A model generated the notes under the pieces. It saw only the letters and a list, made by a program, of their open reading frames with translations. It had not been told where the DNA came from and made no database searches. Positions 37,685 through 58,189 of a DNA stretch of 64,000 nt are shown here, one piece after another. A program made the translations under genes and the position numbers. The stretch is taken from NCBI GenBank assembly GCA_963666485.2, contig CAXXUO010000001.1, positions 608,001 through 672,000 of the forward strand. The letters are read 5' to 3'. Numbering within the stretch: the stretch's first letter is position 1; every line of letters starts with the position of its first letter. Source of the DNA: Syntrophorhabdaceae bacterium (GTDB lineage: Bacteria; Desulfobacterota; Syntrophorhabdia; Syntrophorhabdales; Syntrophorhabdaceae).

Positions 37685-37769
37685 GAAAAATTCATCCGCC
37701 CGCCTGTTTTTTCACTTTTTCTGTTGTCAATTGCCGGGATGTATAATAGAATTAGCTCCTGTTATACGA

Positions 37770-38799: not shown

Positions 38800-39654
38800 T
38801 TACTTTCCCCTATTTTCCCAGAAGCTTTTATCCAGCCTTGCCGTAAATGTCTCGGGCTGCTTTCCCTCGTTGAATATCTGCGCGTACACTACGGGTGCCG
38901 ACCCGGGCTCCAATCGTATCACCCACGTCGCGAGGGTCCGGATGCTCGATCCTTTGCGGGGGTCCCTCATCACCGGGCCCGGGCCGCCCGAATTGCGGTC
39001 GCGGCTCATGGCAATATAATCATCGAGGGTGTGCTCCCGGTTGAGGGAGGCGATCAACTGGTTGATCCTCTTGAGGCGCAGCGTGCTTTCGCGGCTGATC
39101 TTTTCGTTGGCGCCGGCAAGGCTCTCGGATGTGTAATGATTCGTAAAGGCGACAGCCCCATTGTCCTTTACCGTGATCGCGACCTGGCCGCGCGGTGCCA
39201 CTTCGACGGACATGATCCGGGTAGAATCGGCTATTATATAAAGTGCCGGATGGGTCTTCCGGAAAATGTCCCTCTGCTTGTCCAGCGAATCCACGGAATC
39301 GAAGTTCTCGAGGATCCTTTGCGTGAAATCCTCGACTGCGACATGTCTCTTGCTGCGCTGGACGCTGTTCGCCGACGCATTGACGACGACAAGACCCTTT
39401 TCATTCACGGCCGCCACGACGTACCCGTCGGCCTCGATATCGAGGACGCCGAGGAAACGAAAGCCCTTGGCCGGGAAGACAAGACCCAGTCTCGTATGCA
39501 GCGGCGATGAATTGTCCCGGTTCTTTCCGACGATCACCCCTTTGCCCGCGACGATATCGCCGGCTGAGGCCCAGATGGTGCAAGTTTCTCCATACCCTGC
39601 AAATAAAAAACAAAGTATTGTGCAACAGACGAAACCCGTGATGATGCGTGGCAT
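38800..39654 (-). CDS. Exported Ntn hydrolase (peptidase C45/C69-like)
   Basis: Signal peptide then CT nucleophile, GKNRD, VNEKGL, TNHY, S..R. Confidence 0.75.
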   Translation of the reverse strand: MPRIITGFVCCTILCFLFAGYGETCTIWASAGDIVAGKGVIVGKNRDNSSPLHTRLGLVFPAKGFRFLGVLDIEADGYVVAAVNEKGLVVVNASANSVQRSKRHVAVEDFTQRILENFDSVDSLDKQRDIFRKTHPALYIIADSTRIMSVEVAPRGQVAITVKDNGAVAFTNHYTSESLAGANEKISRESTLRLKRINQLIASLNREHTLDDYIAMSRDRNSGGPGPVMRDPRKGSSIRTLATWVIRLEPGSAPVVYAQIFNEGKQPETFTARLDKSFWENRGK

Positions 39655-42387: not shown

Positions 42388-42828
42388 TTGTTCATAGGGA
42401 GATACGAATATTCCATCGATGATAAAAGCAGGGTGAGCGTCCCGGCGAGGTTCAGGGAAGCCCTTTCCTCAAGCGCCGACTCCCGGCTCATCCTCACTAT
42501 TCTCGACGGCTGCGTTGTGGCGTATCCCTACCAGGAATGGCTTTATATCCAGGATAAGATCTCGGCCTCCGGGTCGATGAGCAAAGAGCAGAGGGCTTTT
42601 CTGCGCTATTTCTTTTCCGGTGCCACCGAGTGCACTTTTGACAAGCTGGGAAGGATCCTTATTCCCCAGGCGCTCAAGACCGACGCGCATATCCAGAAAA
42701 ATGTCGTCATAGTCGGCGTGGGAAAGAAAATAGAGGTCTGGGCAAAAGAAAAATGGGAAGAACTGGTTCGGACAGCCACTGCCGATCCCGATCAGATAGC
42801 CACTATCGTATCGGAACTCGGTCTTTGA
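42388..42828 (+). CDS. mraZ: Division/cell wall cluster transcriptional regulator MraZ
   Basis: DDKSRVSVPARFR, DKLGRILIP, EVW; heads the dcw cluster. Confidence 0.95.
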   Translation: MFIGRYEYSIDDKSRVSVPARFREALSSSADSRLILTILDGCVVAYPYQEWLYIQDKISASGSMSKEQRAFLRYFFSGATECTFDKLGRILIPQALKTDAHIQKNVVIVGVGKKIEVWAKEKWEELVRTATADPDQIATIVSELGL

Positions 42829-43712
42829 GTGACGCCGGACATATCCCGGTTCTTTTCCAGGAAGTACTTGAAAACCTGATCAGCAACACAAGCGGCACAT
42901 TCGTCGACGCAACTCTCGGGGGTGCGGGACACGCCCTCGGATTGCTGAGCAGGAACAGTAAATTACACCTAATAGGTATTGATAGAGATCAGGAAGCCTT
43001 AGAGCGGGCGCGGGACGTACTCAGAGCATATAGCGACCGGGTAACTTTACTGAGAGGCAACTTCGGGGACATGAAGGGTTTGCTCCACAGTGCAGGGGTG
43101 AAATCTATTGACGGTGCCCTCTTTGATCTTGGTATTTCCAGCTATCAATTGGAAAGCGGCAGGGGATTCAGCTTTAACGACGACGAGGAACTCGATATGA
43201 GGATGGACCGGGGACAGGACCTCACTGCATATCACATCGTTAATTCATATCGCCAGGAAGAGATCGCCCGGATCCTCTACGAATACGGGGAAGAGTGGCA
43301 ATCGCGCAAAATAGCGAAGGCCATCTTCGATGCCCGGAAAAAAGACCGTATACGGACAGGCAGGCAGCTCGCCGGGATCATCGCATCGGTAAAGAAACGG
43401 ACCGGGAAGACCCATCCTGCCACGAAATCTTTCCAGGCTTTAAGGATAGCCGTCAACGACGAACTGAAAAGCGTGGTGAACGGGCTCGATGCGGCCCTCG
43501 AGCTTCTGTCGCCCGGGTCCAGAATAGGCGTCATAACGTTTCATTCCCTTGAAGACCGGATCGTCAAGGAGCGTTTTCGCAACGATGACGCCCTGGCAGT
43601 CGTGACCCGCAAGCCCTTGAGGCCGGGCCGCGACGAGGTCCGTTCCAACCCGCGGTCGCGCAGCGCCAAACTGCGCATCGCAGAGAAAAAATCAGTGGGG
43701 GGTGCATCATGA
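42825..43712 (+). CDS. rsmH: 16S rRNA m4C1402 methyltransferase
   Basis: HIPVL, DATLGGAGH, DLGISS.QL, LDMRM, FQALRIAVN.EL, FHSLEDR, NPRSRSAKLR. Confidence 0.96.
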   Translation: MSDAGHIPVLFQEVLENLISNTSGTFVDATLGGAGHALGLLSRNSKLHLIGIDRDQEALERARDVLRAYSDRVTLLRGNFGDMKGLLHSAGVKSIDGALFDLGISSYQLESGRGFSFNDDEELDMRMDRGQDLTAYHIVNSYRQEEIARILYEYGEEWQSRKIAKAIFDARKKDRIRTGRQLAGIIASVKKRTGKTHPATKSFQALRIAVNDELKSVVNGLDAALELLSPGSRIGVITFHSLEDRIVKERFRNDDALAVVTRKPLRPGRDEVRSNPRSRSAKLRIAEKKSVGGAS

Positions 43713-44023
43713 TGTACAGATCGAGAAAGATATATATAGACACATCGGGCGACAAGCTGTTCGACGGCGTCCGGCCCATTCTCTTTCTGGGAGTCATGAT
43801 AGCTTTTGTCATCATTGTAAGCTGCCTGCTCGTCAATGCCCACAGCCGGGCACGGCAGGACCTTATCGAGACGCTGACGCTCGAGCGCCAGATGAGGGAG
43901 ACGCACCAGAAACTGGCCTCCGACATGGCAGGCGTTACGCAGTCGCGGCTCCTCGCCCTGAAGGCGAAAGAAAGGCTGGGTTTGACAAAACCAAAGGATG
44001 AAGAGGTTCTCGTCTTGAAATGA
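43709..44023 (+). CDS. ftsL: Cell division protein FtsL
   Basis: Position after rsmH; single TM, coiled coil, AKERLGL..P. Confidence 0.75.
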   Translation: MMYRSRKIYIDTSGDKLFDGVRPILFLGVMIAFVIIVSCLLVNAHSRARQDLIETLTLERQMRETHQKLASDMAGVTQSRLLALKAKERLGLTKPKDEEVLVLK

Positions 44024-44871
44024 ACAAACAGGCGATCAGGAAAGCCTTCATTGTATGCACACTCATAGGGCTCATGTATGCAGGGATTGCGTTCAATGTT
44101 CAGGACCGGTTCTCCATGAAGAGGACGTCGGGGAAGCTCGCCGCAAAGGCACCCCGGAGCTTGAGCGTCGCCGCGCCGCAGCCGAAACCGGACCCGGTCC
44201 CCCAGAAAAAGGCCCTGGTCGCAGATAGCAGCACCGGTTTAGAGCCCGCATTCCTCATCGCCGTCCCCATCATCGCTTTTGCCATACGCGAAAATCTCCT
44301 CGAAAAAGACGGCATGGTCGTCGTTCAGAAGAATGACGAGGATTCGTCTTCGGTCTACCTGAAGAAACCCATGGACATATTGAAAGACAGGGACAAGGAA
44401 GGCCTCAAGGCCTTATCGCGCATCATCGGCAAAAAGAATATCGAGGTCTTTCTCACAAAACAGGGTGTGAAGGTCCCCGATAAATCCCTGTCTGTTGATA
44501 CTATCACCGGAATCGGTTACAGTATTGACCGGAAATTGCTTGTTAGTATGTACGATCAGTATGTCGGTGAAGGCTTCGCTTCCCTCATGCCTTATGCCTC
44601 TGGCGGTTTTGAAGTCTCAAGAAAAAATAACGGGTACCAGATCAATGCGGTCCGGAATGAAAAAACACCGGAGAACGCGGGGGCAAGTTCCGCCTTTTCC
44701 ATGCCGGACCTCACGGGATTGTCCATGAAAGCGGCCCTCGACAGGATATCGCCGAAGGCCGAGGTCAAGATCCACGGTTCGGGCATCGTTGTCGACCAGT
44801 TCCCCAAACCAAAGGAAAGAGTTGAAAAAGAGACCCGGTGCGTTCTGTATGGGAGGTCATACCAAAAGTGA
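44020..44871 (+). CDS. Degenerate FtsI-like protein (TM + transpeptidase remnant + PASTA) lacking catalytic motifs
   Basis: ftsI slot between ftsL and murE; 283 aa; C-terminal PASTA (MPDLTGLSMKAAL...GSGIVVDQFP); no SxxK or KTG. Confidence 0.75.
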   Translation: MNKQAIRKAFIVCTLIGLMYAGIAFNVQDRFSMKRTSGKLAAKAPRSLSVAAPQPKPDPVPQKKALVADSSTGLEPAFLIAVPIIAFAIRENLLEKDGMVVVQKNDEDSSSVYLKKPMDILKDRDKEGLKALSRIIGKKNIEVFLTKQGVKVPDKSLSVDTITGIGYSIDRKLLVSMYDQYVGEGFASLMPYASGGFEVSRKNNGYQINAVRNEKTPENAGASSAFSMPDLTGLSMKAALDRISPKAEVKIHGSGIVVDQFPKPKERVEKETRCVLYGRSYQK

Positions 44872-46319
44872 AACTTGGCAGCATAATAAAAGGGGTAGAC
44901 ACGATAAGCATCCGCGGCAATACCTCCCTTGAAATAACAGGTATTACGAAAGATTCGCGCGATGTCACGCAGGGTTCCCTCTTCTTCGTGACGCGCTCGA
45001 GCAACGCATACATAGAAGACGCCTTCAAACGCGGCGCGAGCGCCGTCGTGACGGATGGAGAGATAAACGAGCCCTTCGGCTGCATCATCCATGTCGGGGA
45101 TGTCATGAAAGCGCTCGGTCAGGCGGCGTCGAACTTTTATCATCACCCGTCGCGCCGGGTCCATATCACCGGGATAACCGGGACAAACGGCAAGACGACA
45201 ATAACGTACCTCATAGAGTCCGTCCTGCGCTCGGCCGGAAAAGAACCCGGGGTGATCGGGACGATCTCATACCGTTATGCAGGGAAAACGTTCAAAGCGG
45301 CAAACACCACCCCCGGCGCAAGTGAAATGAACGGCCTCCTGAGCGACATGGCCGCCTCAGGCGTAAACCACGTGATCATGGAGGTGTCGTCCCATGCCCT
45401 CGACCAGAGACGGGTCGAAGGCATCGACTTCGATGTCGCGGTGTTCACGAACCTCACGCACGACCACCTGGATTACCATGGCACTTTCGAGAATTACGGG
45501 GCTGCCAAGAGGCTTCTTTTCGAGGACTATCTCGCACGGAGCAGGAAAAAGAAGAGATACGCCGTGATGAATATTGATGATCCCGCTATCAGGGACTTCA
45601 TTATAACCGCGCCTGTAACAATGCTCTCTTACAGCACGCGGGGCTTTGCCGACGCCTGCCTTTCGGAGTACTCCGAAAGCATCGATGGCCTGACACTCAC
45701 CATAAGCCTTCCGGGGAAGAAGATCCCCATCGTCACACCTTTAATCGGCATGTTCAATGCCTCCAACATCCTTGCCGCAGCACTGTCAGGTTATGCAGCG
45801 GGCATACCGCACCGCGCCATCAAAGAGGGTATCGAGCGTGTAAAGGGCGTTCCGGGAAGATTGGAACGGGTTGCAAACGACAGGGGCATTTCGGTCTTCG
45901 TGGATTATGCGCATACCCCGGACGCCATCAAGAACGTGCTTTCGCTTCTCGGAGGTCTCAAGAAGGGAAAGCTTATCGCCGTTTTCGGATGCGGAGGAAA
46001 CAGGGACGCGGCGAAACGGCCCATCATGGGCGCGCTTGCTTCCCGGCTCGCGGATGAGGTGATCATCACATCGGACAATCCGCGGAATGAGGACCCTGCT
46101 AGGATCATCGCGGACATCGCGCGGGGGGTCGAGGGAAAACGGTACAGGATCATCGAAGACAGGAGGGAGGCCATCTTCGAGAGCATTCGCACGGCACGGC
46201 CCGATGACGTCGTGCTCGTGGCGGGCAAGGGACATGAGGATTACCAGATCGTGGGCGACACCATACTGCATTTCAGTGATCGTGAGGTTGTCGAGGAGTG
46301 TTTCCATGTGGCGACTTGA
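44868..46319 (+). CDS. murE: UDP-MurNAc-tripeptide synthetase (meso-DAP type)
   Basis: GITGTNGKTT, MEVSSH, DHLDYH, VDYAHTPD, DNPR, GKGHE. Confidence 0.97.
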   Translation: MKLGSIIKGVDTISIRGNTSLEITGITKDSRDVTQGSLFFVTRSSNAYIEDAFKRGASAVVTDGEINEPFGCIIHVGDVMKALGQAASNFYHHPSRRVHITGITGTNGKTTITYLIESVLRSAGKEPGVIGTISYRYAGKTFKAANTTPGASEMNGLLSDMAASGVNHVIMEVSSHALDQRRVEGIDFDVAVFTNLTHDHLDYHGTFENYGAAKRLLFEDYLARSRKKKRYAVMNIDDPAIRDFIITAPVTMLSYSTRGFADACLSEYSESIDGLTLTISLPGKKIPIVTPLIGMFNASNILAAALSGYAAGIPHRAIKEGIERVKGVPGRLERVANDRGISVFVDYAHTPDAIKNVLSLLGGLKKGKLIAVFGCGGNRDAAKRPIMGALASRLADEVIITSDNPRNEDPARIIADIARGVEGKRYRIIEDRREAIFESIRTARPDDVVLVAGKGHEDYQIVGDTILHFSDREVVEECFHVAT

Positions 46320-47667
46320 AGACATCATCACGGCGGTGAAGGGAACGGTCCTGAAAAGAACGCGGGACGCCTTTACCGGCATCTCCACCGACTCCCGCGC
46401 GATCGGTGAAGGCGAGCTCTTCATTCCCATCGTCGGCAAGACCTTCGACGGCCATTCGTTCATCGAACAGGCGCTGAAGATCTCCCACGGCGGAACGCTC
46501 TGCAGGAACGACTACCCGGCGCCCCTTGCCGATGTGCCCGGAACGGTCATCCTTGTCGAGGACACGAACCAGGCCCTGCTCGACATCGCACGCTTCAAAC
46601 GCGACAGCATCGCGGCGAAATTCATCTGCATAACGGGCAGCAACGGCAAGACCACAACCAAAGAGATCCTCGCAGGAATGCTGAAAAAGAAGTTCGACGT
46701 ACACTATAACGAGAAGAACCTCAACAACCTGATCGGTGTACCTCTCGCCATCCTCGCAATCGCGGGAGAACCCGGGGCATGCATCATGGAGCTGGGAACA
46801 AATATGCCCGGTGAGATAAAAAAACTCGCCATCGCCACCGATCCCGACATCTCGCTTATCACGAACGTCAACCCGTCGCATCTCGAGGGGCTGGAATCGC
46901 TTGAGGGGGTACTCGAAGAAAAGCTCGACCTCTTCCGGTACACGAGGCCCCACGGGAAGATCCTTGTCAACATCGACGATCCCGGCATTGCCGGGCGGTA
47001 CCGGCAAACGGGCCACAAGGCGATAACGTTCGGCATCGAAAATGACGCGCACTACCGCTTGCGCGTGATACGCGACCTCGGCTGGGAAGGCGCGGTCATA
47101 TCCATAATCTCCCCGGCCGGGACGATCGAGGCGAGAACGTCTCTTCTCGGGCGGCACAACCACTATGACCTGCTTGCCGCCGCGACGTGCGCTTCCGTTA
47201 TGGGGGTCGACCATGGATTGATCGCAGAGGCCATCGAAGAGTTCACGTCGTATGACAAACGGCTTCAGCCGATCAGGAGTTCCCGCGGGTTCGTCATCAT
47301 AGACGATACGTACAACGCGAACCCGTCTTCCGTGGAGTGGGCCATACACACCTTGAGCGATCTCCCGTCCGACGGCAGGAAGGTGGTCGTGCTTGGCGGG
47401 ATGAAGGAACTCGGCAAAGAAAGCGTCTTCTACCACGGGGAAATAGGCAGGTTCCTCAACAAGATGAAAGATATCGGCCTTATTGTCCTTTTCGGCGAGG
47501 AGACCGGCGACACATACTCCGAGCTCGGCAACGGGAAAGCCGTGCACTTCAACAACAAGGAACAGCTCGTCGAATACCTGAGAGGGGAACTTAAGACCGG
47601 CGACACGGTCCTCGTCAAAGGGTCGCGGGCATTTAAGATGGAGGAAATAGTGGAGGCCCTGAAGTAA
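46306..47667 (+). CDS. murF: UDP-MurNAc-pentapeptide synthetase
   Basis: [35 protein letters not shown]. Confidence 0.96.
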
Positions 47668-48743
47668 TGCTGTACTACCTGCTCTATCAGCTCCACGGAA
47701 AGATCGGCGCGTTCAACGTCTTTCGCTATATTACGTTCAGGGCGGTCCTCGGGATCCTGTCGGCCCTCATCATCAGTTTTATCCTGACACCCTACGTTAT
47801 CCGGAAATTCCACGAATGGAAGATCCGCAGCGGCAAGCGCGAAGATGTCCCGGACCGCCACGAGGCAAAGAAAGAAACCCCGACCATGGGCGGGTTCGTG
47901 ATCCTCATCGCGACCGTCATACCAACGCTCCTGTGGGCGGACCTCACCAATTACTATATATGGGTCGTCATCTTCTCCCTCGTGTCGTTCGGCTTCATTG
48001 GGTTCATGGACGATGTGCAGAAACTCCGCGGGGTAAACGGGAAAGGCATAACGGGGCGGACGAAGCTGTCGCTCCAGCTTCTCTTTGCGGCCATGATCGG
48101 TGCGATGATCTTCTTTAAGTACGGCTTCGTCACGCAGCTGACCATACCGTTCTTCAAGACCCTTCTCCCTGATCTCGGGGTCTTCTACATCGCCCTGTGC
48201 ATCTTTATGATCGCGGGGACCTCGAACGCGGTGAACCTGACCGACGGGCTTGACGGCCTGGCGATCGGCCCGGTCCTCACCGTCTGCACGACGTTCATGG
48301 TATTCTGCTATCTCGTTGGAAATGCGATATTCTCGCAATACCTCCAGATATTTTTCGTAAAGGGCGCCGGGGAGCTCACCGTCCTGTGCGGCGCGATGCT
48401 CGGGGCCGGCATCGGGTTCCTCTGGTACAATGCCCACCCGGCGGAGCTTTTCATGGGCGATACGGGCTCACTTTCGCTCGGCGCCGCACTCGCGACCATC
48501 GCCGTCATCATCAAGCAGGAGTTCCTCCTCGTTATCGCAGGCGGGATATTCGTCCTCGAGACGTTGTCCGTCATCATCCAGGTCTATTCTTTCAAACTCC
48601 GGGGGAAGAGGGTTTTCAGGATGGCGCCCATCCACCACCATTTCGAGCTGAAAGGGTGGAACGAGGAAAAGATCGTTGTCCGGTTCTGGATCATCTCGGT
48701 GATCCTCGGACTTATTGCCATGAGCACACTGAAGTTGAGGTAA
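47667..48743 (+). CDS. mraY: Phospho-MurNAc-pentapeptide transferase
   Basis: [34 protein letters not shown]. Confidence 0.98.
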
Positions 48744-48744
48744 A

Positions 48745-50070
48745 ATGGACATACCTGATCGCATACTTATCGTCGGACTTGGCACATCGGGAATAGCCGT
48801 TGCCAGGTTCCTTTCCCGGCTCGGGAAGACGATCGGTATCGCCGACGAAAAGAGTGAAAATGAGCTCGGCAACGCCCTTTCGGCGCTTGAAGGGATCGCA
48901 TATACCGGCCATTTCGGCCCGCACCGGCAAGCCGATTTCACCTCCTATCCACTCATTGTCCTGAGCCCCGGCGTCGATACGGAGCTGCCCGTCATCCGGG
49001 AGGCCAAAAAGGCCGGCGTCAGGGTCATCGGCGAGATGGAACTTGCCTCATCCTTTGTGAAAGACCCGATAATAGCGATCACGGGAACAAATGGAAAGAC
49101 AACGACGACAACCCTCATCGGTGAGATATTTTCGAAGGGGCTCGGGCCCTGCTTCGTCGGGGGGAACATCGGCAACCCTCTCATCAACTACGTGGCGGAC
49201 GGCACACGTTGCCCGGCCGTTATCGTGGAGGTGAGCAGCTTTCAGCTCGAAACGATCGAGGGCTTCAGGCCGTCAACCGCCCTGCTCCTCAACATCACCG
49301 AAGACCACCTCGACCGCTACCGTAGCTACGAGGAATACAAAGCCGCGAAATACCGCATCTTCGATAACCAGGCAAGTACGGACAATGCCATCGTACGGTC
49401 CGGGCTCGATGTCCCGATGAAAGGCACGCCGCGCGCGTTCACGTTCTCTGCGACAGATGAGGTCCGCGAGGGGGCATTCGCGAAGGACGGCAGGCTCTAT
49501 GTGAGGTTCGACGGCAAGGAATCGTCCTTCCGGCGGGACATCTCGCCTCTCGTCGGCGTCCATAACACGGAGAACATCCTCGCCGCCATTCTTACGGCCC
49601 GCATTCACGGAATAGACGATGCGGTCATTGAAAGTTGTTTGCGGAGATTCCGCGGGCTCCCCCACCGGGTCGAATTCGTGCGCACCGTACGGGATGTTGC
49701 CTTTTACAATGATTCGAAGGCCACGAACGTCGATGCCACAAAGAGGGCCCTCGAAGGCTTCGACAGGAACGTCATCCTGATCGCCGGCGGCAAGGACAAG
49801 GGCGGAAGCTACAAAGCGATACGCGATATGAGTGCGCGCATAAAGGCCATTATTCTTATCGGCGAGGCAAAGGACCGGATCGCCGCGGAGCTTTTCGATA
49901 TCGCCCCGACGTACGGGGAAAGCGATATGACGTCCGCCGTGTATGCAGCCTTTTCGCAGGCATCGGCAGGGGACACCGTCCTCCTGTCGCCGATGTGCAG
50001 CAGCTTCGACATGTTCACGAGCTACAAGGAGCGGGGAAATACATTCAGGAGAATAGTGGAGTCGCTGTGA
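48745..50070 (+). CDS. murD: UDP-MurNAc-L-Ala:D-Glu ligase
   Basis: ITGTNGKTTT, GGNIG, EVSSFQL, DHLDRY, NDSKATN, SFDMF. Confidence 0.97.
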   Translation: MDIPDRILIVGLGTSGIAVARFLSRLGKTIGIADEKSENELGNALSALEGIAYTGHFGPHRQADFTSYPLIVLSPGVDTELPVIREAKKAGVRVIGEMELASSFVKDPIIAITGTNGKTTTTTLIGEIFSKGLGPCFVGGNIGNPLINYVADGTRCPAVIVEVSSFQLETIEGFRPSTALLLNITEDHLDRYRSYEEYKAAKYRIFDNQASTDNAIVRSGLDVPMKGTPRAFTFSATDEVREGAFAKDGRLYVRFDGKESSFRRDISPLVGVHNTENILAAILTARIHGIDDAVIESCLRRFRGLPHRVEFVRTVRDVAFYNDSKATNVDATKRALEGFDRNVILIAGGKDKGGSYKAIRDMSARIKAIILIGEAKDRIAAELFDIAPTYGESDMTSAVYAAFSQASAGDTVLLSPMCSSFDMFTSYKERGNTFRRIVESL

Positions 50071-50858
50071 AAAAGATAGGAATAGCCATAGTGTCCCTTA
50101 TCCTCGTATACAGCTTTTTCCGCGAATTCTCGCTCATGCGCGTCGCCATCATACTTGCGGGCGCCGCGGCGGGCTTCGGCATCTCGCTGATCCCCCGGCG
50201 CGGGATCGAGGCGATGAAGTACCCTCTCATTATCATCTCTTTCGCCATAACCGTCCTCCTGTTCTTCTACCCGAAGGTCACGATACCGGATGCCGCAAAA
50301 ATGGCGATCGTCTTTGTTTCCTTCTACGGCTTCGCCTTCTACCTCATAGGCATAGAGAACAAGGACCAGGACTTTTTCAAGGAAGTGACCGCGCTGTCCA
50401 TCCTTTTCTTCTCGTCCGGCTTCAATCTCTATATCACGGGGAACCTCGTATACCTGATCTCGTTCGCGCTCGCCCTCATGCTGTTCCTCTTCATCCTGGG
50501 AAGGTACCGCGTCATTGCCTTTATCGCCGCGTATACCCTCGTGGCATGCTTCATGATCTACCGTCAGAAGACGGGAATCCTGGGAAGCGGCCTCACGGGC
50601 CTTTCGGAGATCAACAAGTACATGCTCCTCGGGACGTCCTTCGCGCTTCTCGCTATCAGTTTTGCGACGATCATGAAGAAAGGCAGCTTCACGAATATGC
50701 TGCCTTTCTTCGGTTTCCTCTATGTGGCAGTGGATATCCTGCTCGTCGTCGGAATGAAGCTGCAGGCAGGGCTCCTCTATCAGCCGGTCCTTTTCCTTGC
50801 CATCGTCGTCCCGCTCGCGGGAACGATGATGATGAAGACGGAAGGAGGGCGGGCATGA
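50067..50858 (+). CDS. Degenerate FtsW-like multi-pass membrane protein lacking SEDS catalytic loop
   Basis: ftsW slot between murD and murG; GTG start overlapping the murD stop; 263 aa, mostly TM helices; no HTDF or SYGGS motif. Confidence 0.7.
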   Translation: MKKIGIAIVSLILVYSFFREFSLMRVAIILAGAAAGFGISLIPRRGIEAMKYPLIIISFAITVLLFFYPKVTIPDAAKMAIVFVSFYGFAFYLIGIENKDQDFFKEVTALSILFFSSGFNLYITGNLVYLISFALALMLFLFILGRYRVIAFIAAYTLVACFMIYRQKTGILGSGLTGLSEINKYMLLGTSFALLAISFATIMKKGSFTNMLPFFGFLYVAVDILLVVGMKLQAGLLYQPVLFLAIVVPLAGTMMMKTEGGRA

Positions 50859-51922
50859 AGCTCGTGATCAGCGCCGGCGGAACAGGAGGGCATATCTTTC
50901 CGGGGATAGCCGTGGCGGAATCCTTGATCGCTCAAGGGGGCGGCAACAGCGCCGTATTTATCGGGACGCCCTACGGCCTCGAGAAATCGATCATCCCCAA
51001 TGCCGGGTTTAAACTCCACCTTATCGAGGCCCATCAATTCCTGGGACGCTCGGTGGTACACAAGGCAGTAACGCTCCTTCGGATCATCAAAGGCGTCTTC
51101 ATGTGCCTTAAGATATTGAAACAGGAAAGACCGGACGCCATACTCGGCATGGGCGGGTTTACCTCGGTGCCCGTCATCATTGCGGGGAGAATGCGCGGGA
51201 TCCCCTGCTTCATCCATGAACAGAATGTCGAGCCCGGGCTTGCAAACAAATTATTGTCGCGCATAACCCGGACGGTTTTTGTGAGCTTCGACGCCACGGC
51301 CGCGAAACTGCCGCACGGAAGCGCCGTGCATACCGGCAACCCGCTCCGCCAGAAATTGAAGAAGATCGAGGGGATCAAGGATCCGGAGTCGTTCGGCATC
51401 TTTGTCTTCGGGGGCTCGCGGGGGGCAAAAAGCATCAACGATGCCGTCGTGTCGCTCCTGCCCCACCTCGCGGAGCATCACAATGTCGTCGTCTATCACC
51501 AGACCGGGCCGGATGATCTCGACCGGATACGTGACGCGTATTCCAAGGTCCGCGTCCCGCATGAGGTCTTCGCCTTCACGAACGAGATGGAAAAATATTA
51601 CGCGCTTTCCGATGTGGTGATAGCACGCGCAGGCGCAACGACGATCTTCGAACTCGCCTTTTTCCGGAAGGCGGCGATACTGATACCGTATCCGTACTCG
51701 GCCGGCAATCACCAGTGGCAGAACGCGGCATACGTGGAAGAAAAGGGCGGATGCCATCTTGTCAACAATGACGAAGCAACGGGTGAATTGCTGTTCGGCT
51801 TGATCCGGCAGCTCATGAAAGATAGAGAGCTCATCAAGAAAATGGGCGAGAACCTGGGAAAGATATTCGTGGACAATGCCGCATTACGCATCATCGGAGG
51901 AATAGAACATGGTCTTTCATAA
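50855..51922 (+). CDS. murG: Lipid I GlcNAc transferase
   Basis: GGTGGHIFP, HEQN, GNPLR, GGSRGA, RAGATT, HQ..NA. Confidence 0.97.
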   Translation: MKLVISAGGTGGHIFPGIAVAESLIAQGGGNSAVFIGTPYGLEKSIIPNAGFKLHLIEAHQFLGRSVVHKAVTLLRIIKGVFMCLKILKQERPDAILGMGGFTSVPVIIAGRMRGIPCFIHEQNVEPGLANKLLSRITRTVFVSFDATAAKLPHGSAVHTGNPLRQKLKKIEGIKDPESFGIFVFGGSRGAKSINDAVVSLLPHLAEHHNVVVYHQTGPDDLDRIRDAYSKVRVPHEVFAFTNEMEKYYALSDVVIARAGATTIFELAFFRKAAILIPYPYSAGNHQWQNAAYVEEKGGCHLVNNDEATGELLFGLIRQLMKDRELIKKMGENLGKIFVDNAALRIIGGIEHGLS

Positions 51923-53285
51923 GATCGAACGCGTCCACTTCGTGGGCATAGGCGGCATTGGGATGAGCGGCATCGCCGAGGTCCTCATCAACCTCGGCTT
52001 CAAGGTGACAGGGTCCGATGTCCGCCAGACGGATATAACGGAGAGGCTCGCATCCCTCGGCGCGGTCATCTTCCAGGGCCACCGGGAGGAGAACATCGTC
52101 GATTCCGACGTCGTCGTCGTTTCGTCAGCGGTGAGACCCGACAATCCCGAGGTAAAAAAGGCACGTGAGCTCTTCATTCCCGTCATCCAGCGCGCCGAGA
52201 TGCTCGCCGAGCTCATGCGTATGAAATATTCGATCGCTGTCGCGGGGGCGCACGGAAAGACGACGACAACGTCCCTCGTTTCCTCGATCCTGGGCCAGGC
52301 CGGCCTTGACCCGACCTGCGTCATCGGCGGGCGCTTGAACAGCCTCGGCAGCAACGCGAAGCTCGGGGATAGCAAGTACCTCGTCGCCGAGGCCGACGAA
52401 AGCGACGGCACGTTCCTGCTTCTCTTCCCCACGATCGCTGTTGCGACGAACATCGACCTCGAGCACCTCGATTTTTACAAAGACATAAACGAGATCAAGG
52501 CGGCGTTCCTCGCATTCCTGAACAAGGTGCCTTTCTACGGGGTGAACATCCTTTGCATCGACAACCCGAACATCCAGGGCCTCATACCCTCGCTCAAGCG
52601 GCGCTACATGACCTACGGCTTGTCGAAGCAGGCCGATCTCAGGGCGGACAATATCTCGTACAAGGGGTTCGTAACAAAGTTCAGGGTGATATACAAAGGG
52701 TACGACCTGGGTGAGATCGAGCTTAACCTCGCCGGGGCGCACAATGTCGTGAACGCCCTTGCCGCCTGCGGCGTGGCGATCGAACTCGACATACCGTTTT
52801 ACACCATACAGGAGGCCCTCAAGAATTTCTCCGGCATCCATCGCAGGCTGGAGATAAAGTACGACGGCGATATCAAGCTCATAGACGATTACGGGCACCA
52901 CCCGACGGAGATCAAAGCGACCTTGAGCGCCATGCGGAAGATGTGGAAGGGCCGGATCATCGTCGCATTCCAGCCCCACCGCTACACGCGGACCCAGGGG
53001 CTCATGGATGAATTCGCCACGTCCTTCAACGAAGCCGACGTCCTCATCATTACCGAGATATACGCGGCATCGGAAGACCCTATCAAAGGGATCAGCGGAT
53101 CGGCGCTCGCCGAAAAGTTACGCGCGAGCGGGCATAAGAATGTGATCTTCGCCCCGACGCGGGATGATGTGATCGACAGGGTACTGGAAAACGCTAAACC
53201 GGGGGACGTCGTAATAACCCTCGGCGCCGGGGACCTGTACAGGATAGACGAACGTTTAAGAAGCGCATGGACTGGAAAGAAATAA
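51909..53285 (+). CDS. murC: UDP-MurNAc:L-Ala ligase
   Basis: GIGGIGMSG, GAHGKTTT, EADESD, DDYGHHPTE, FQPHRYTRT. Confidence 0.98.
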   Translation: MVFHKIERVHFVGIGGIGMSGIAEVLINLGFKVTGSDVRQTDITERLASLGAVIFQGHREENIVDSDVVVVSSAVRPDNPEVKKARELFIPVIQRAEMLAELMRMKYSIAVAGAHGKTTTTSLVSSILGQAGLDPTCVIGGRLNSLGSNAKLGDSKYLVAEADESDGTFLLLFPTIAVATNIDLEHLDFYKDINEIKAAFLAFLNKVPFYGVNILCIDNPNIQGLIPSLKRRYMTYGLSKQADLRADNISYKGFVTKFRVIYKGYDLGEIELNLAGAHNVVNALAACGVAIELDIPFYTIQEALKNFSGIHRRLEIKYDGDIKLIDDYGHHPTEIKATLSAMRKMWKGRIIVAFQPHRYTRTQGLMDEFATSFNEADVLIITEIYAASEDPIKGISGSALAEKLRASGHKNVIFAPTRDDVIDRVLENAKPGDVVITLGAGDLYRIDERLRSAWTGKK

Positions 53286-54163
53286 AAGGAGCGGTATTGA
53301 AAGACGTGCCCATGAAACGGTACACATCGATGCGGGTCGGCGGACCGGCGAGGATGCTCCTCTACCCGGCCGACAGGGCGGACCTGCAGGCAATGGTGCG
53401 CCGTCTTCGCGATTCGGGCATCCCGTACCGGTTCCTCGGCAACGGGACGAATATCATCGTCAGCGATGACGGCATCGGCGACGCGCTTATACGGCTAAGC
53501 AGGATGGCGAGGCTTCATTTCACCAAAACACCGGATGGGGCCATCGCGGAGGTCGGCGGCGGCTTTTCGCTCAAGCGCTTCATCCGTGAATGTGCGCGGC
53601 GCGGCCTCGGAGGGCTCGAGAAACTGTACTGGATACCCGGGAGCGTCGGCGGCGGCATCAGGATGAACGCGGGAAGCTTCGGCCAATCAATATCGGACAC
53701 ACTGACAGGCATCGCGGTCCTTGACGGCCGGGGCCAGGTGATCGAAAAAGAGACTGCGCCGGGTGATTTCGGATACCGCGCATCCCTCGTAAAGCAGTCC
53801 GAATGCGTCATCAGCGGGCGATTTCAGCTGAAAAATGCCGACAGGGCCCAACTCGAAAGGGACATGGACTACGTCTACCGGGAAAGGAAGTTGAGACACC
53901 CCATGGACTACCCTTCGGCGGGGTCCGTATTCAAGGGTGTCAATGGACAATCGGCATGGTGGTTCGTCGAAGAGGCGGGCCTGCGCGGGTACCGGATAGG
54001 CGACGCATGCGTCTCGGACAAGCATACGAATTTCATCATCAACATGGGACATGCCCGGGCCCGGGACATAGCCGCCCTTATCAAAAAGATAAAGGATGAG
54101 GTCCTGGCCAGGTTCGGTGTCACACTGGAGGAAGAAGTTGAGTTGTGGGGATTTAATGGATAA
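53267..54163 (+). CDS. murB: UDP-N-acetylenolpyruvoylglucosamine reductase
   Basis: GGPA, LGNGTN, IPGSVGG..RMNAG, SAGSVFK, HTNFIIN. Confidence 0.96.
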   Translation: MDWKEIKGAVLKDVPMKRYTSMRVGGPARMLLYPADRADLQAMVRRLRDSGIPYRFLGNGTNIIVSDDGIGDALIRLSRMARLHFTKTPDGAIAEVGGGFSLKRFIRECARRGLGGLEKLYWIPGSVGGGIRMNAGSFGQSISDTLTGIAVLDGRGQVIEKETAPGDFGYRASLVKQSECVISGRFQLKNADRAQLERDMDYVYRERKLRHPMDYPSAGSVFKGVNGQSAWWFVEEAGLRGYRIGDACVSDKHTNFIINMGHARARDIAALIKKIKDEVLARFGVTLEEEVELWGFNG

Positions 54164-55064
54164 GGAAACTTTGAAAACGATAAAGATAGGGGTCCTCTTC
54201 GGCGGCAGGTCATCGGAAAGGGAGATATCGCTGAGAAGCGGAAAGGCCGTTTTCGATGCCCTTATCCGGCTCGGATACAACGCGGTCGCGATCGACGCCG
54301 AGAAAAAACTTATCGATAAGCTAAAAAAACAGAAGATCGAGGCGGCTTTTATCGTGCTCCATGGAAGATGGGGCGAGGACGGTACGGTACAGGGACTCCT
54401 CGAGCTCATGGGAATACCGTACACCGGCCCCGGCGTGATGGGTTCGTCCGCGGCAATGGACAAGGCGATCATGAAATTCATCCTTGAGGCATCGCACATC
54501 CCCACCCCGAAATATGCCGTCGCGGGTGCGGGTGATCGTATCACCTTCAAACCGCCCTTCGTCGTGAAACCCGCAAACGAAGGATCGACGATAGGGATAT
54601 CGCTCGTCCAGAAAAGAAAGGATATACCGGCAGCCATGGAACTCGCGCTCAGGTACGACAGGAAAGTAGTTGTCGAAGAATTTATAGCCGGCCAGGAGAT
54701 CACGGTTGCCGTCATCAACGGAAGGGCCCTGCCCGTCATCGAGGTGCGGCCGCTGTCCGGTTTCTATGATTTCGAGGCAAAGTACACAAAAGGGATGACG
54801 GAATACATCGTCCCCGCCCGGATATCCCGGACGATCGCCAGAAAGGCGCAGGCCATCGCGCTCGATGTGAGCCGCCGGTTCGACCTTACCGGGTGCGTAC
54901 GGATCGATATGCTTATCAAGGAAGAGGTCCCCTACGTGATCGATATCAACACCTCCCCCGGCATGACGGAGACATCGCTCGTCCCCAAGGCATGGGCATA
55001 CGAAGGAAAGACATTTGACGAGCTTATCGACGAGATACTTTCAGGAGCTTCGCTGAAGATATGA
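54156..55064 (+). CDS. ddl: D-alanine--D-alanine ligase
   Basis: GG.SSEREISL, LHGRWGEDG, FYDFEAKY, INTSPGMT. Confidence 0.97.
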   Translation: MDKETLKTIKIGVLFGGRSSEREISLRSGKAVFDALIRLGYNAVAIDAEKKLIDKLKKQKIEAAFIVLHGRWGEDGTVQGLLELMGIPYTGPGVMGSSAAMDKAIMKFILEASHIPTPKYAVAGAGDRITFKPPFVVKPANEGSTIGISLVQKRKDIPAAMELALRYDRKVVVEEFIAGQEITVAVINGRALPVIEVRPLSGFYDFEAKYTKGMTEYIVPARISRTIARKAQAIALDVSRRFDLTGCVRIDMLIKEEVPYVIDINTSPGMTETSLVPKAWAYEGKTFDELIDEILSGASLKI

Positions 55065-55762
55065 AGAAGTTTCTCTACTTTCTGTTCATCGGGCCGGTCT
55101 GCATACTCTCCATGCTGTCGATCGCCTATTTGTTCTCCCGGGAGGAGCCGCTCTTTTTCCTGCAGAACATAAAGGTGAACGGCTTGAGCCAGCTCGGTGA
55201 CAAGGAAACGGTCGCGAAGATCCAGCCGTACGTCACGCAGAACATCTTCAAGGTGGACCTCGAGAAGATGCAGGAAACCCTTACCGCGCACCCCTTCGTC
55301 AAAGAGGTCAGCGTAAAGCGGGTCTACCCGTTCTCGCTCGTCATCGACGTGAAGGAGAAGAAGCCGTCCGCCCTCTGGGTCGCAAACGACGGCGCGGTCC
55401 TCGTCCTCGACGAGGCAGGCGAAGCGTACCGCTCACTGGGAAAGGACGACGTCAGGGGGCTCTACATTATCAATACCCGCGAAAAGTCTGATGCCAAGAG
55501 CGTCTTTCACGAGACAAACAGTTTTATCGCGGACGGGATAATCAAGAAAGGTCAGCTTTCGGAAGTATCTTACGTCAACGGGAATCTTATAATGTTCGGC
55601 TTCAATGACGGCGTCGAGATCATACTCGGCAAGGAAGACCACAAGACCCGGCTTAAACGGGCCATGACTGTCCTTAAGGACGCGAGCAAACGCGGCCTTC
55701 TCATAAAATGCATCGACGCGCGCTTTGAAAAAGGCGCCATAATCCAGGAAAAGAAGGGGTGA
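55061..55762 (+). CDS. ftsQ: Cell division protein FtsQ/DivIB
   Basis: TM + POTRA (HPFVKEVSVKRVYP..L.I.VKE), C-terminal IDARF; between ddl and ftsA. Confidence 0.88.
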   Translation: MKKFLYFLFIGPVCILSMLSIAYLFSREEPLFFLQNIKVNGLSQLGDKETVAKIQPYVTQNIFKVDLEKMQETLTAHPFVKEVSVKRVYPFSLVIDVKEKKPSALWVANDGAVLVLDEAGEAYRSLGKDDVRGLYIINTREKSDAKSVFHETNSFIADGIIKKGQLSEVSYVNGNLIMFGFNDGVEIILGKEDHKTRLKRAMTVLKDASKRGLLIKCIDARFEKGAIIQEKKG

Positions 55763-57012
55763 GGCGGGTGAAGGAAGAGGAACAGCTGCTTGTAGGTCTC
55801 GATATCGGAACAACGAAGATCTGCGTTGTCGTCGGAAAGGCGGCGGAAGACAAGGTCAACATCATCGGCATAGGATCGCATCCTTCCACCGGCCTGCGCA
55901 AAGGCGTCGTCGTCAACATGGACAGCACCGTCAACTCGATCAAGAAGGCCGTCGAAGAAGCGGAGCTCATGGCCGGCATCAAGATCGATTCATGCCTTGC
56001 CGGCATCGGCGGGGCCCACATCAAGAGCTTCAACAGCAATGGCGTTGTGGCGGTCAAGGACCGCGAGGTCCGTCCCGATGACATCGATCGTGCGATCGAC
56101 GCCGCAAAGGCGGTCGCCATACCCGCCGACCGGGAACTGATCCATGTCATCCCGCAGGAATTTATCGTCGATGACCAGGACGGGATACGCGACCCCGTGG
56201 GCATAACAGGGGTCAGACTCGAAGTGAAGGTACACATCGTGACCGGGAGCATCTCGTCAGCCCAGAACATCATCAAATGCTGCAAACTTGCCGGGCTCAA
56301 TGTCGACGACGTGATACTCTGCCAGCTCGCGTCGGCGGAAGCCGTCCTGACACCGGAGGAAAAGGAGATAGGCGTGGCCGTCGTCGACATAGGGGGCGGA
56401 ACGAGCGACATCGCCGTCTATGCGAACGGGGCAATAAAGCACACATCCGTCCTGCCGTTCGGCGGCAACAATATCACGAACGACATAGCGATCGGCCTGA
56501 GGACGCCGATCGACGACGCCGAGAAGATCAAGAAAAAATACGGCTGCGCTATGGCGAGCCTCGTCGGCCAGAATGAGACGATAGAGGTTCCGAGCGTCGG
56601 CGGCAGGAAACCCAGGACCCTCCAGAGAAAGACCCTGGCGGACATCATAGAGCCCCGGGTCGAAGAGGTGTCCTCACTTATTTACGATGAGATCAAGAAG
56701 TCGGGCCTCGAGAAGCTGCTTGCATCAGGCGTTGTCCTGACGGGCGGATGCTCGAACCTCGACGGGCTGCCGGAAATGGCGGAGAACATATTCAACCTGC
56801 CGGCCCGAAAAGGCGACCCGATCGGGGTCGGCGGGCTTATCGACGTCGTCAACAACCCGGCATATGCAACGGCTGTCGGGCTCTTGCTGTTCGGTTTCAA
56901 GGAAGGACGAGGGAAAAAACGCGGGTTTGACGCTGCGCGCTCGATGAGGAAGTTGTTCAGCAACCAGCGGCTGCTCACGAAGATGAAAGACTGGTTTAAA
57001 GAAATATTCTAG
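55759..57012 (+). CDS. ftsA: Cell division protein FtsA
   Basis: GLDIGTTKI, VDIGGGT, AEKIK, VLTGG, C-terminal amphipathic WFKEIF. Confidence 0.98.
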   Translation: MRRVKEEEQLLVGLDIGTTKICVVVGKAAEDKVNIIGIGSHPSTGLRKGVVVNMDSTVNSIKKAVEEAELMAGIKIDSCLAGIGGAHIKSFNSNGVVAVKDREVRPDDIDRAIDAAKAVAIPADRELIHVIPQEFIVDDQDGIRDPVGITGVRLEVKVHIVTGSISSAQNIIKCCKLAGLNVDDVILCQLASAEAVLTPEEKEIGVAVVDIGGGTSDIAVYANGAIKHTSVLPFGGNNITNDIAIGLRTPIDDAEKIKKKYGCAMASLVGQNETIEVPSVGGRKPRTLQRKTLADIIEPRVEEVSSLIYDEIKKSGLEKLLASGVVLTGGCSNLDGLPEMAENIFNLPARKGDPIGVGGLIDVVNNPAYATAVGLLLFGFKEGRGKKRGFDAARSMRKLFSNQRLLTKMKDWFKEIF

Positions 57013-57022
57013 GAGGTGCGAG

Positions 57023-58189
57023 GTGAGTGGAATGTTCTACATGGACGAGAGCAACGGTTTTTCAGCAAAATTGATTGTCGTGGGGGTAGGTGGAGGGGGC
57101 TGCAATGCACTCAACAACATGGTCGAAGCGGGGATCCAGGGTGTTGAGTTCATCGCGGTTAACACGGATATCAAGTCGCTCAGCACATGCAAGGCACCGG
57201 TCAAGATACAGATCGGGACGAAGCTGACCGAGGGGCTCGGTGCCGGTGCGAATCCCGAGGTAGGCAAAAAGGCCGCGCTCGAGGATGTCGACAAGATAAA
57301 GGACCACCTCAAGGGCGCGCACATGGTCTTCATCACCTGCGGGCTTGGCGGGGGAACGGGGACAGGGGCGTCACCGGTCATAGCGGAGATAGCGCGCGAG
57401 GTCGGGGCGCTCACGGTCGCGATCACGACGAAGCCTTTCGCCTTCGAGGGGAAGGACAGGATGACCCAGTCGGAAAACGGCGTCACCCAGCTCAAGTCAC
57501 GGGTTGACTCGCTCATTACGATCCCCAACCAGAGACTGCTCTCGGTCGGTGGAAAACACATGACGATCATGGAGGCATTTCTCAAAGCCGACGAGGTCCT
57601 CCTCAACGCGGTGCGTTCCATTTCCGACCTCATCATCGGGTCCGGCCATGTCGTCGTGGATTTCGCCGATGTCAAGACGATCATGAGCGAGCGGGGAATG
57701 GCCATCATGGGCATTGGCGAGGCACAGGGAGAGTCGAGGGCGCGCGACGCGGCACAGAAAGCGATCTCGAGCCCGCTTCTCGAAGATATCTCCATCCATG
57801 GCGCCCGCGGCGTTCTCATCAACGTCACCGGCAACACCGACATGACACTGATGGAGGTCAGCGAAGCATCGACGCTTATCCAGGAACAGGCCCACGAAGA
57901 CGCGAAGATCATCTGGGGCCTTGTCTACGACCCGTCCATGCAGGATATGATCAGGATCACCGTCATCGCGACCGGTTTCGAGGAACGGGCCGCCATAGAC
58001 GACGACACGACCGAGCTTTTCCTGAAGGACAGGCTCTTCGATGATGGCAGTATGCCGTCTTTTATGAAGAAGAAGGTCGCCATCGATTACAAGGTCGACT
58101 ACAAGGAAATCAGGCAGAAGAGCGATACGATCGATATCGACGACGATCGCTATGATATACCGACATTCCTCAGAAAACAGGCAGATTAA
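57023..58189 (+). CDS. ftsZ: Cell division protein FtsZ
   Basis: GVGGGG.NA, GAGANPEVG, GGGTGTG, DFADV, DIPTFLRKQAD. Confidence 0.99.
   Translation: MSGMFYMDESNGFSAKLIVVGVGGGGCNALNNMVEAGIQGVEFIAVNTDIKSLSTCKAPVKIQIGTKLTEGLGAGANPEVGKKAALEDVDKIKDHLKGAHMVFITCGLGGGTGTGASPVIAEIAREVGALTVAITTKPFAFEGKDRMTQSENGVTQLKSRVDSLITIPNQRLLSVGGKHMTIMEAFLKADEVLLNAVRSISDLIIGSGHVVVDFADVKTIMSERGMAIMGIGEAQGESRARDAAQKAISSPLLEDISIHGARGVLINVTGNTDMTLMEVSEASTLIQEQAHEDAKIIWGLVYDPSMQDMIRITVIATGFEERAAIDDDTTELFLKDRLFDDGSMPSFMKKKVAIDYKVDYKEIRQKSDTIDIDDDRYDIPTFLRKQAD

What the first reader, a model, noticed from the sequence alone, without database searches (positions are those of the whole stretch)
44020..44871. Mini-FtsI: TM anchor, eroded transpeptidase core and PASTA, with no SxxK, SxN or KTG
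Seen: N-terminal TM, a Pro-rich linker in place of the pedestal domain, and a clear C-terminal PASTA. I find no SxxK or KTG/KSG in the protein. By eye, three segments follow the class B PBP order with catalytic residues replaced: GLEPAFLIAVPIIAFAIRENL vs EPGSTxKP..AAALE; DILKDRDKEGLKALSRIIGKKNIEVFLTKQG vs IL..SSNVG...LG....Y...FG; TITGIGYSIDRKLLVSMY vs SFGQG..VTPLQL..AY. Inference: a non-catalytic peptidoglycan-sensing or scaffold protein derived from PBP3, which would not be a beta-lactam target.
Basis: partly seen in the sequence, partly recalled or inferred. Interest (0 to 1): 0.8.

Follow-up and report, generated by a model that had tools for sequence, protein, structure and literature searches.

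The report
Dead FtsI-FtsW pair kept by selection
Across a whole order of anaerobic bacteria, the two gene slots for the enzymes that normally build the division wall hold shortened proteins without catalytic residues (a shrunken FtsI and a likely FtsW remnant) that selection still preserves, so these cells likely build the wall with another enzyme while the remnants would act as a scaffold.

Summary
Confirmed and extended. The 283-aa ORF sits in the ftsI slot of the dcw cluster. It has a TM helix, a disordered linker, a 150-residue core that folds like a PBP transpeptidase domain (Z 11-12), and a PASTA domain. The catalytic Ser and Lys align to F78 and A81; 0 of 119 homologues have SxxK or SxN there.

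It holds a 263-aa membrane protein with no Pfam family and no SEDS motifs, likely an FtsW remnant (weak homology). The 99%-complete genome has only RodA-PBP2 as a SEDS-class B pair.

The mini-FtsI occurs in 95 of 96 genomes of the order (Syntrophorhabdales by hit names). Both genes are under purifying selection (dN/dS 0.22 and 0.16). FtsZ, FtsA, FtsQ, FtsL, FtsB and FtsK remain.

Best model: a non-catalytic FtsWI scaffold, with a conserved class A PBP building the septum (inferred).

Precedents: division without FtsWI is published for C. difficile, and ftsW absence for Desulfobulbaceae. This scan found dead FtsI with no ftsW earlier on other DNA. Keeping both partners as dead remnants was not found in eight paper searches.

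The parts
44020..44871 (+). Mini-FtsI (pI), 283 aa, in the ftsI slot; start overlaps the ftsL stop (ATGA), stop overlaps the murE start (GTGA)
44026..44100 (+). N-terminal TM helix (residues 3-27); invariant R35 follows
44104..44232 (+). Low-confidence, length-variable linker (residues 29-71) in place of the pedestal domain
44221..44676 (+). Reduced transpeptidase-fold core (residues 68-219); catalytic Ser->F78, Lys->A81, SxN->R124-D125-K126; conserved charged patch K115 K116 P117 ... D125, G128
44686..44859 (+). Single PASTA domain (residues 223-280), closest to FtsI-type PASTA
50067..50858 (+). 263-aa multi-TM protein (pW) in the ftsW slot, likely FtsW remnant; no Pfam family, no SEDS catalytic motifs; 4-nt overlaps with murD and murG
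43709..44023 (+). ftsL-like gene (assigned by slot, size and single TM; no Pfam FtsL hit)
42388..43712 (+). mraZ and rsmH, head of the dcw cluster
   Evidence: MraZ; rsmH recognised from sequence and slot
44868..50070 (+). murE, murF, mraY, murD (intact)
50855..58189 (+). murG, murC, murB, ddl, ftsQ, ftsA, ftsZ (open frames)
   Evidence: murB, ddl, ftsQ, ftsA, ftsZ recognised from sequence and slot, not scanned against Pfam

Best explanation
The ORF is a shrunken FtsI that has lost its pedestal domain and catalytic motifs and, with a likely FtsW remnant four genes downstream, would form a non-catalytic scaffold in the divisome while a conserved class A PBP likely builds the septum. Shown: both slots hold shortened, motif-less proteins across the order; both are under purifying selection; the genome's only SEDS-class B pair is RodA-PBP2 in the mreBCD operon; the rest of the divisome and intact class A PBPs are present. 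Inferred: (1) pW descends from FtsW (about 0.8); (2) pI and pW still bind each other and FtsQLB in the membrane (about 0.6); (3) PASTA and the charged dead core, on a flexible tether, bind peptidoglycan or a partner enzyme; (4) the septal synthase is the 623-aa class A PBP (about 0.5) rather than RodA-PBP2 (about 0.25) or something else.
For: Slot: ftsL-pI-murE and murD-pW-murG; 51 of 55 loci with both genes have the exact order. Fold of pI: Foldseek top hits PBP2x, E 9e-5; unbiased search, top 50 all PBP/beta-lactamase/PASTA. The pI core aligns better to FtsI (E 0.0017, 122 columns) than to the PBP2 set (E 0.09, 20 columns) or five Mur/RsmH controls (best E 0.016, 38 columns). Nearest outsiders among 1.84 billion proteins are PASTA-bearing class B PBPs or pieces of them (13 of 13 scanned). 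Motifs: 0 of 119 with SxxK or SxN at the site versus 19 of 19 control FtsI. pW: best non-self profile hit among about 13,350 ORFs is an FtsW, E 1.1e-4, the same gene that was best outside the order in 131 genomes; its N-terminal 112 residues align to FtsW (E 0.0009) but not RodA (0.27) or MraY (0.35); 0 of 56 carry RW, QPxE, QPDxG, HTDF or YGG[ST], versus 16-19 of 19 FtsW. One SEDS and one class B PBP in the genome; one SEDS match in 82 of 95 other genomes of the order versus two or more in 102 of 126 phylum genomes outside it (my count). Median dN/dS pI 0.215, pW 0.159, murE 0.154, 32 pairs. FtsB and FtsK present. One class A PBP orthologue in 75 of 77 genomes at 64-95% identity, motifs intact in this genome, and the only GT51 match in G072. 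Precedents: a class A PBP drives division in C. difficile (PMC10693644, abstract and Discussion); inactive PBP2B keeps a structural role in B. subtilis (PMC5656894, abstract).
Against: pW-FtsW homology is weak: only 1 of 19 FtsW was among the top 30 hits of the profile search; hhalign probability 9-23%; the C-terminal third has no significant match; the pW model is poor (pLDDT 52) and FtsW ranks only 18th in the unbiased fold search, Z 7.1, among unrelated helical proteins. The pI core profile does not find FtsI significantly by HMMER (best E 1.6). The pedestal, which carries one of the two FtsL contact sites in the FtsWIQBL structure (PMC7614612, passages), is gone, so the canonical FtsL-FtsI interface cannot be kept as such. 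No gene-context link ties either class A PBP to the dcw cluster. In eight other lineage samples ftsW is simply absent beside an eroded ftsI, so a pW scaffold is not a general requirement. No localisation, binding or essentiality data exist.
Confidence: 0.55

Rival explanations
1. The remnants are adaptors that bring the elongation pair RodA-PBP2 to midcell, so one SEDS-class B pair does both elongation and division.
For: RodA and PBP2 are present throughout the order with motifs intact in this genome. Alternative class B PBPs can supply activity beside an inactive canonical one (PMC5656894 abstract; PMC12516126 passage).
Against: RodA-PBP2 sits in an ordinary mreBCD operon with ordinary sizes; no duplication or added domain seen. 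In C. difficile the sole essential SEDS-bPBP pair serves elongation (PMC10693644, section title and Discussion).
Confidence: 0.22
2. pI is a dead FtsI, but pW is an unrelated membrane protein that took over the ftsW slot; the two are not a complex and pI acts alone as a peptidoglycan-binding tether.
For: Weak and partial pW-FtsW similarity; eroded FtsI without any gene in the ftsW slot in other lineages.
Against: Exact slot with 4-nt overlaps; collinear N-terminal match to FtsW TM1-4; an FtsW is the best non-self hit in two searches; FtsW preferred over RodA and MraY.
Confidence: 0.15
3. The eroded core or pW has gained a new catalytic activity that uses the conserved charged residues (K115, K116, D125 in pI; N120, D223 in pW).
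For: D125 is invariant in 119 of 119 and K115/K116 nearly so; N120 and D223 are invariant in 56 pW.
Against: No conserved Ser, Cys or His in the core positions inspected; the strand region 185-210 is partly deleted in a family f3 member; rates are like those of structural neighbours.
Confidence: 0.05
4. The genes are decaying relics, and true ftsW/ftsI are missing only because assemblies are incomplete.
For: Most genomes are fragmented assemblies; a few members are frameshifted.
Against: 95 of 96 genomes carry pI; dN/dS about 0.2. The one-contig genome G051 has the same dcw layout and its second SEDS is a non-dcw 482-aa type. The dcw cluster is contiguous here.
Confidence: 0.03

Closest known systems
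FtsI/PBP3 with C-terminal PASTA (class B PBP; fold matches PBP2x, M. tuberculosis PBP3, E. coli PBP3) and FtsW (SEDS) of the FtsWIQBL divisome core (PMC7614612)
   Same: dcw slots, TM-transpeptidase fold-PASTA order, collinear FtsW TM1-4 segment, FtsQ/L/B/A/Z/K retained.
   Different: No pedestal, core cut to about 150 residues, no SxxK/SxN/KTG; pW about 100 residues shorter than FtsW with no SEDS motifs.
Clostridioides difficile divisome with class A PBP1 as septal synthase (PMC10693644)
   Same: Vegetative division without a catalytic FtsW-FtsI pair; one RodA-PBP2 pair; class A PBP available.
   Different: In C. difficile the dcw pair stays catalytic for sporulation, FtsQLB is dispensable for vegetative division and FtsA is missing. 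Here both slots hold motif-less remnants under selection and FtsA is kept.
Desulfobulbaceae and other Desulfobacterota with ftsW absent (PMC7873302) and dead FtsI (scan note e1-3060603)
   Same: Same phylum, loss of FtsI catalytic motifs, no canonical FtsW.
   Different: Those mostly keep a longer FtsI (340-668 aa open frames) with a pedestal-like region and delete ftsW outright (murD next to murG). Here the pedestal is gone and a membrane protein persists in the ftsW slot. The tree favours a separate origin but does not prove it (p-AU 0.12).
Catalytically inactive PBP2B of Bacillus subtilis (engineered; PMC5656894)
   Same: Shows that an FtsI-type protein has a structural role separable from catalysis.
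   Different: A laboratory point mutant rescued by another class B PBP with FtsW intact; not a natural, fixed, two-partner loss.

Membership tests
FtsI/PBP3 (class B PBP) | Encoded between ftsL and murE in the dcw cluster | tested here: met
FtsI/PBP3 (class B PBP) | Single N-terminal TM anchor | tested here: met
   helix 3-24; one predicted TM in 47 of 56, two in 9
FtsI/PBP3 (class B PBP) | Pedestal (PBP_dimer) domain | tested here: not met
   only about 45 low-confidence residues between TM and core; no PF03717 hit in 60 members
FtsI/PBP3 (class B PBP) | Penicillin-binding transpeptidase fold | tested here: met
   reduced form: Z 10.8-11.9, rmsd 3-4 A over about 150 residues; Pfam PF00905 not reached
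FtsI/PBP3 (class B PBP) | SxxK and SxN motifs | tested here: not met
   0 of 119 at the aligned sites; 19 of 19 controls have them
FtsI/PBP3 (class B PBP) | K[TS]G motif | tested here: not met
   none in this protein; 6 of 119 homologues have K[TS]G somewhere in the domain, not conserved
FtsI/PBP3 (class B PBP) | Beta-lactam acylation and transpeptidase activity | not testable with these tools
   needs a Bocillin-FL assay
PASTA domain | PF03793 over cut-off and PASTA fold | tested here: met
   24.1 bits vs 23.2; Z 9.2, rmsd 1.4 A over 58 residues
FtsW (SEDS) - for the 263-aa ORF | Encoded between murD and murG | tested here: met
FtsW (SEDS) - for the 263-aa ORF | PF01098 match | tested here: not met
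   0 of 77 members
FtsW (SEDS) - for the 263-aa ORF | Catalytic Asp motif (HTDF, recalled) and RW, QPxE, QPDxG, YGG[ST] motifs | tested here: not met
   0 of 56 versus 16-19 of 19
FtsW (SEDS) - for the 263-aa ORF | Ten-TM SEDS fold / remote homology | tested here: inconclusive
   model pLDDT 52; FtsW Z 7.1-7.5, rmsd 3.2-3.3 A over 112-120 residues; profile E 1e-4 to 4e-3
FtsWI complex | Physical pI-pW interaction | not testable with these tools
   needs co-purification or two-hybrid tests; see Tried and rejected for the one prediction job
C. difficile-type aPBP-driven divisome | No canonical vegetative FtsW/FtsI; class A PBP present | tested here: met
C. difficile-type aPBP-driven divisome | Class A PBP drives septal synthesis | not testable with these tools
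   needs inhibition or depletion with septal labelling

The most novel reading that the evidence does not exclude
Syntrophorhabdales carry a natural pseudo-enzyme FtsWI: both partners have shed their catalytic parts and the matching pedestal and periplasmic-loop interface, and the minimal complex that remains couples FtsZ-FtsA-FtsQLB to a class A PBP. It would mark the smallest non-catalytic function of FtsWI, and be one of several separate exits from FtsWI catalysis within Desulfobacterota.
Probability: 0.4. Interest if true: 0.88.

Novelty: new variant of a known kind. Interest (0 to 1): 0.74.

Why it matters
FtsW-FtsI is described as universally essential for septal synthesis, with C. difficile as the worked exception (PMC10693644). 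Here an entire order with FtsZ, FtsA and FtsQLB lacks any catalytic FtsW/FtsI yet keeps both slots filled under selection. That separates the structural from the enzymatic role of FtsWI by natural experiment and names what is kept: the FtsI TM, a dead core, PASTA, and the FtsW-like helices. It makes two open questions testable: what FtsWI does besides catalysis, and how a class A PBP or RodA-PBP2 is coupled to the Z-ring. It also predicts that PBP3-selective beta-lactams would not filament these cells, and gives names to two 'hypothetical protein' families.

Tried and rejected
1) Complex prediction pW + pI(1-45): no verdict, scores 0.19 and 0.13 against a mark of 0.32, controls not folded; not evidence either way.
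2) HMM of pI against PDB sequences: nothing significant, best PASTA E 0.28.
3) Pfam Transpeptidase and FTSW_RODA_SPOVE not hit by any member.
4) Foldseek with the pW model: no match at E<=0.001; RodA 8tj3_B at rank 8, E 1.6. Unbiased VIA search: FtsW rank 18 among unrelated helical proteins.
5) Global hhalign of pW failed; the C-terminal third of pW has no significant match.
6) Whether residues 192-210 of pI descend from the hairpin after LMKPY (sequence alignment) or from the central sheet including the KTG strand (chain ranges) is unresolved; no residue-level superposition was available and the targeted alignment found nothing.
7) ESM Atlas: pI core gave leads only (0.88, including a PF00905 cluster); pW gave nothing usable (0.82).
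8) No RNA holder listed; promoter and terminator counts equal shuffles.
9) Independence from other dead-FtsI lineages: the IQ-TREE tree separates them, FastTree drew one long branch (L164) next to the order, and the AU test did not reject a joint clade, p 0.123.
10) MtgA and the L,D-transpeptidase near the cluster were considered as replacements; G072 has a single GT51 match, so MtgA is unlikely to be the general answer; L,D-transpeptidase conservation was not surveyed.
11) Sequence and place look-ups in earlier scan findings were blank.

Full report
1. The observation. The ORF at 44020-44871 encodes 283 aa. Its neighbours form a complete dcw cluster: mraZ, rsmH, ftsL, [this ORF], murE, murF, mraY, murD, [263-aa ORF], murG, murC, murB, ddl, ftsQ, ftsA, ftsZ (the Mur ligases, MraY, MurG and MraZ by Pfam, the others recognised from sequence and slot). 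The ORF occupies the ftsI slot and overlaps both neighbours by four bases. Pfam finds only PASTA. The AlphaFold2 model from 60 homologues (mean pLDDT 73.5) has a TM helix, a disordered linker at 29-71, a compact core and PASTA.

2. The core is a reduced transpeptidase domain. Foldseek's eight matches at E<=0.001 are all PBP2x. In a search of 48,161 chains without Foldseek, the top 50 rows are all PBP, beta-lactamase or PASTA domains; the best is Z 11.9, rmsd 4.1 A over residues 68-219, and E. coli PBP3 scores Z 10.8. This signal is weak alone (E 0.001-0.002, probability 14-21%) but specific: FtsI E 0.0017 over 122 columns against PBP2 E 0.09 over 20 columns. The catalytic Ser falls on F78 (Leu, Phe or Tyr in 105 of 119) and the Lys on A81 (Ala or Ser in 111 of 119). 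None of 119 sequences has SxxK or SxN at the site and 6 have K[TS]G anywhere in the domain (the set overlaps between database hits and genome loci, so rows are not independent). All 19 controls have all three motifs. The origin of strands 192-210 is unresolved.

3. The partner slot is eroded too. The ORF between murD and murG (50067-50858, 263 aa, nine hydrophobic segments) has 78 homologues and no meaningful Pfam family. Its profile's best non-self hit among about 13,350 ORFs is an FtsW (E 1.1e-4), though only 1 of 19 FtsW was among the top 30 hits. The same gene was the best hit outside the order in 131 genomes. The N-terminal 112 residues align collinearly with FtsW TM1-4, with the GAxRW loop deleted (E 0.0009 against RodA 0.27 and MraY 0.35). 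None of 56 carries RW, QPxE, QPDxG, HTDF or YGG[ST]; that the Asp of HTDF is the catalytic D275/D297 of PMC7614612 is recalled. The fold test is inconclusive: pLDDT 52; FtsW is the best natural chain among Foldseek's candidates (Z 7.5) but rank 18 in the unbiased search. I put FtsW descent at about 0.8, resting on slot plus weak sequence signal.

4. No other FtsW or FtsI. This genome (99% complete) has one SEDS match and five transpeptidase matches over cut-off: PBP2, a class D beta-lactamase-like protein and three class A PBPs. RodA and PBP2 lie in mreB-mreC-mreD-mrdA-rodA with motifs intact. pI is found in 95 of 96 genomes of the order; the one miss, G002, also gave no murE match. Of 59 loci examined, 55 held both genes in full (4 dropped: three without pW in the stretch, one partial). 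Of these 55, 51 show the exact order, three differ likely only through how overlapping frames were sorted, and one lacks murD. SEDS matches number one in 82 of 95 other genomes. Of the 13 with more, the extras I read were RodA-like (G003) or a non-dcw 466-482-aa type (G039, G051, G054); the rest I judged only by size, score and position as split genes, duplicates or fragments. PBP_dimer matches number one in 87 of 96, none in 2, more in 7; one 91-aa contig-end fragment in G054 was not examined. Outside the order, 102 of 126 phylum genomes have two or more SEDS matches (my count). Hit names give Syntrophorhabdaceae and Syntrophorhabdus; the genomes themselves are unnamed, so the order name is inferred.

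5. Kept by selection. Median dN/dS over 32 unsaturated, non-independent pairs: pI 0.215, pW 0.159, murE 0.154, murF 0.160, murD 0.132, mraY 0.055. pI keeps invariant R35, D125, G164 and PASTA residues; pW keeps Y52, P69, N120, F214, D223.

6. Mechanism. Shown: a walled bacterium with FtsZ, FtsA, FtsQ, FtsL, FtsB and FtsK lacks a catalytic FtsW-FtsI pair and preserves motif-less proteins in both slots. Inferred: what was lost fits together (catalytic motifs of both partners, the pedestal, and about 100 residues of FtsW that probably include the large periplasmic loop), and what was kept is what anchors and tethers (TM helices, PASTA). The remnants would therefore serve as a membrane scaffold with FtsQLB. 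A polymerase is still needed; the recognised candidates are class A PBPs (GT51 matches in 77 of 77 genomes), MtgA and RodA. One 623-aa class A PBP is present in 75 of 77 genomes at 64-95% identity and is the only GT51 match in G072, which makes it my first candidate, by analogy with C. difficile. RodA-PBP2 is the main rival. Nothing here tests localisation or binding.

7. Related losses. Among 10 single-SEDS genomes of the phylum, 9 have no gene between murD and murG, and the 8 of these with a visible slot have eroded FtsI. A six-gene tree of 28 rows (10 of 38 left out for run time) places the order (SH-aLRT 100) beside an intact-FtsWI lineage (97), apart from those, but a joint clade is not rejected (p-AU 0.123). 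A separate origin is favoured, not shown.

8. Literature. PMC10693644 (abstract, Discussion): C. difficile lacks canonical FtsW/FtsI and uses a class A PBP. PMC7873302 (passages): ftsW absent in four Desulfobulbaceae genomes, with FtsI treated as functional. PMC12516126 (passages, section 17): a domain-wide survey lists taxa without FtsI and does not mention this order in the main text; its supplement was cut when stored, I saw only a Table S12 row (three class A PBPs in S. aromaticivorans), and Tables S3-S7 could already record the missing FtsI/FtsW. PMC7614612 (passages): FtsWIQBL interfaces. PMC5656894 (abstract): inactive PBP2B supports division. Eight searches returned no paper on these two families or on division in this order; the library lacks most subscription journals.

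9. Verdict. A real, order-wide feature. pI is FtsI-derived but not a member of the active family (pedestal and motifs tested, not met); pW works as a likely FtsW remnant and fails SEDS membership. It is a new variant of a known kind (division without catalytic FtsWI), distinctive in keeping both slots filled with selected, non-catalytic proteins. Interest 0.74.

Noticed in passing
L155-L164 (G113, G154, G126, G151, G164, G198, G231, G187, G124; G207 intact): Of 10 single-SEDS genomes of the phylum whose dcw region was fetched, 9 have murD directly next to murG (no ftsW); the 8 of these with a visible ftsI slot have eroded FtsI of 340-668 aa with no GSxxK or SxN[IV]. They fall in three places on the quick tree.
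   Followed up: partly
window 60787-61650 (-): MtgA-like monofunctional GT51 glycosyltransferase 2.6 kb downstream of ftsZ.
   Followed up: partly
window 37671-38777 (+): LysM-YkuD L,D-transpeptidase 3.6 kb upstream of mraZ; four YkuD genes in the genome.
   Followed up: no
G000 whole genome: No FtsX_ECD match; the only SPOR match lies in a 950-aa protein that does not look like FtsN. FtsEX and FtsN may be missing or divergent.
   Followed up: partly
L034:4786-7997, L035:5516-8253, L036:4337-7503: A few genomes of the order carry an extra, divergent 466-482-aa SEDS gene next to an atypical class B PBP outside the dcw cluster; patchy, likely acquired.
   Followed up: partly
L047:11076-11819 (G072): The shortest pI (248 aa, family f3) lacks most of the linker and about 20 residues of the strand region after the core, which points to the minimal conserved unit.
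   Followed up: no
L054 (G095): murD is absent between mraY and pW in this locus.
   Followed up: no
window 58520-60145 (+): A radical-SAM-like gene (recognised by eye) after ftsZ appears split over three overlapping frames, possibly frameshifted.
   Followed up: no
L002 (G000:C9:54216-54872 -): Class D beta-lactamase-like secreted protein with SxxK and KTG intact (family assigned by eye).
   Followed up: no
window 38800-39654 (-): Peptidase C45/AAT-family protein convergent with the L,D-transpeptidase.
   Followed up: no
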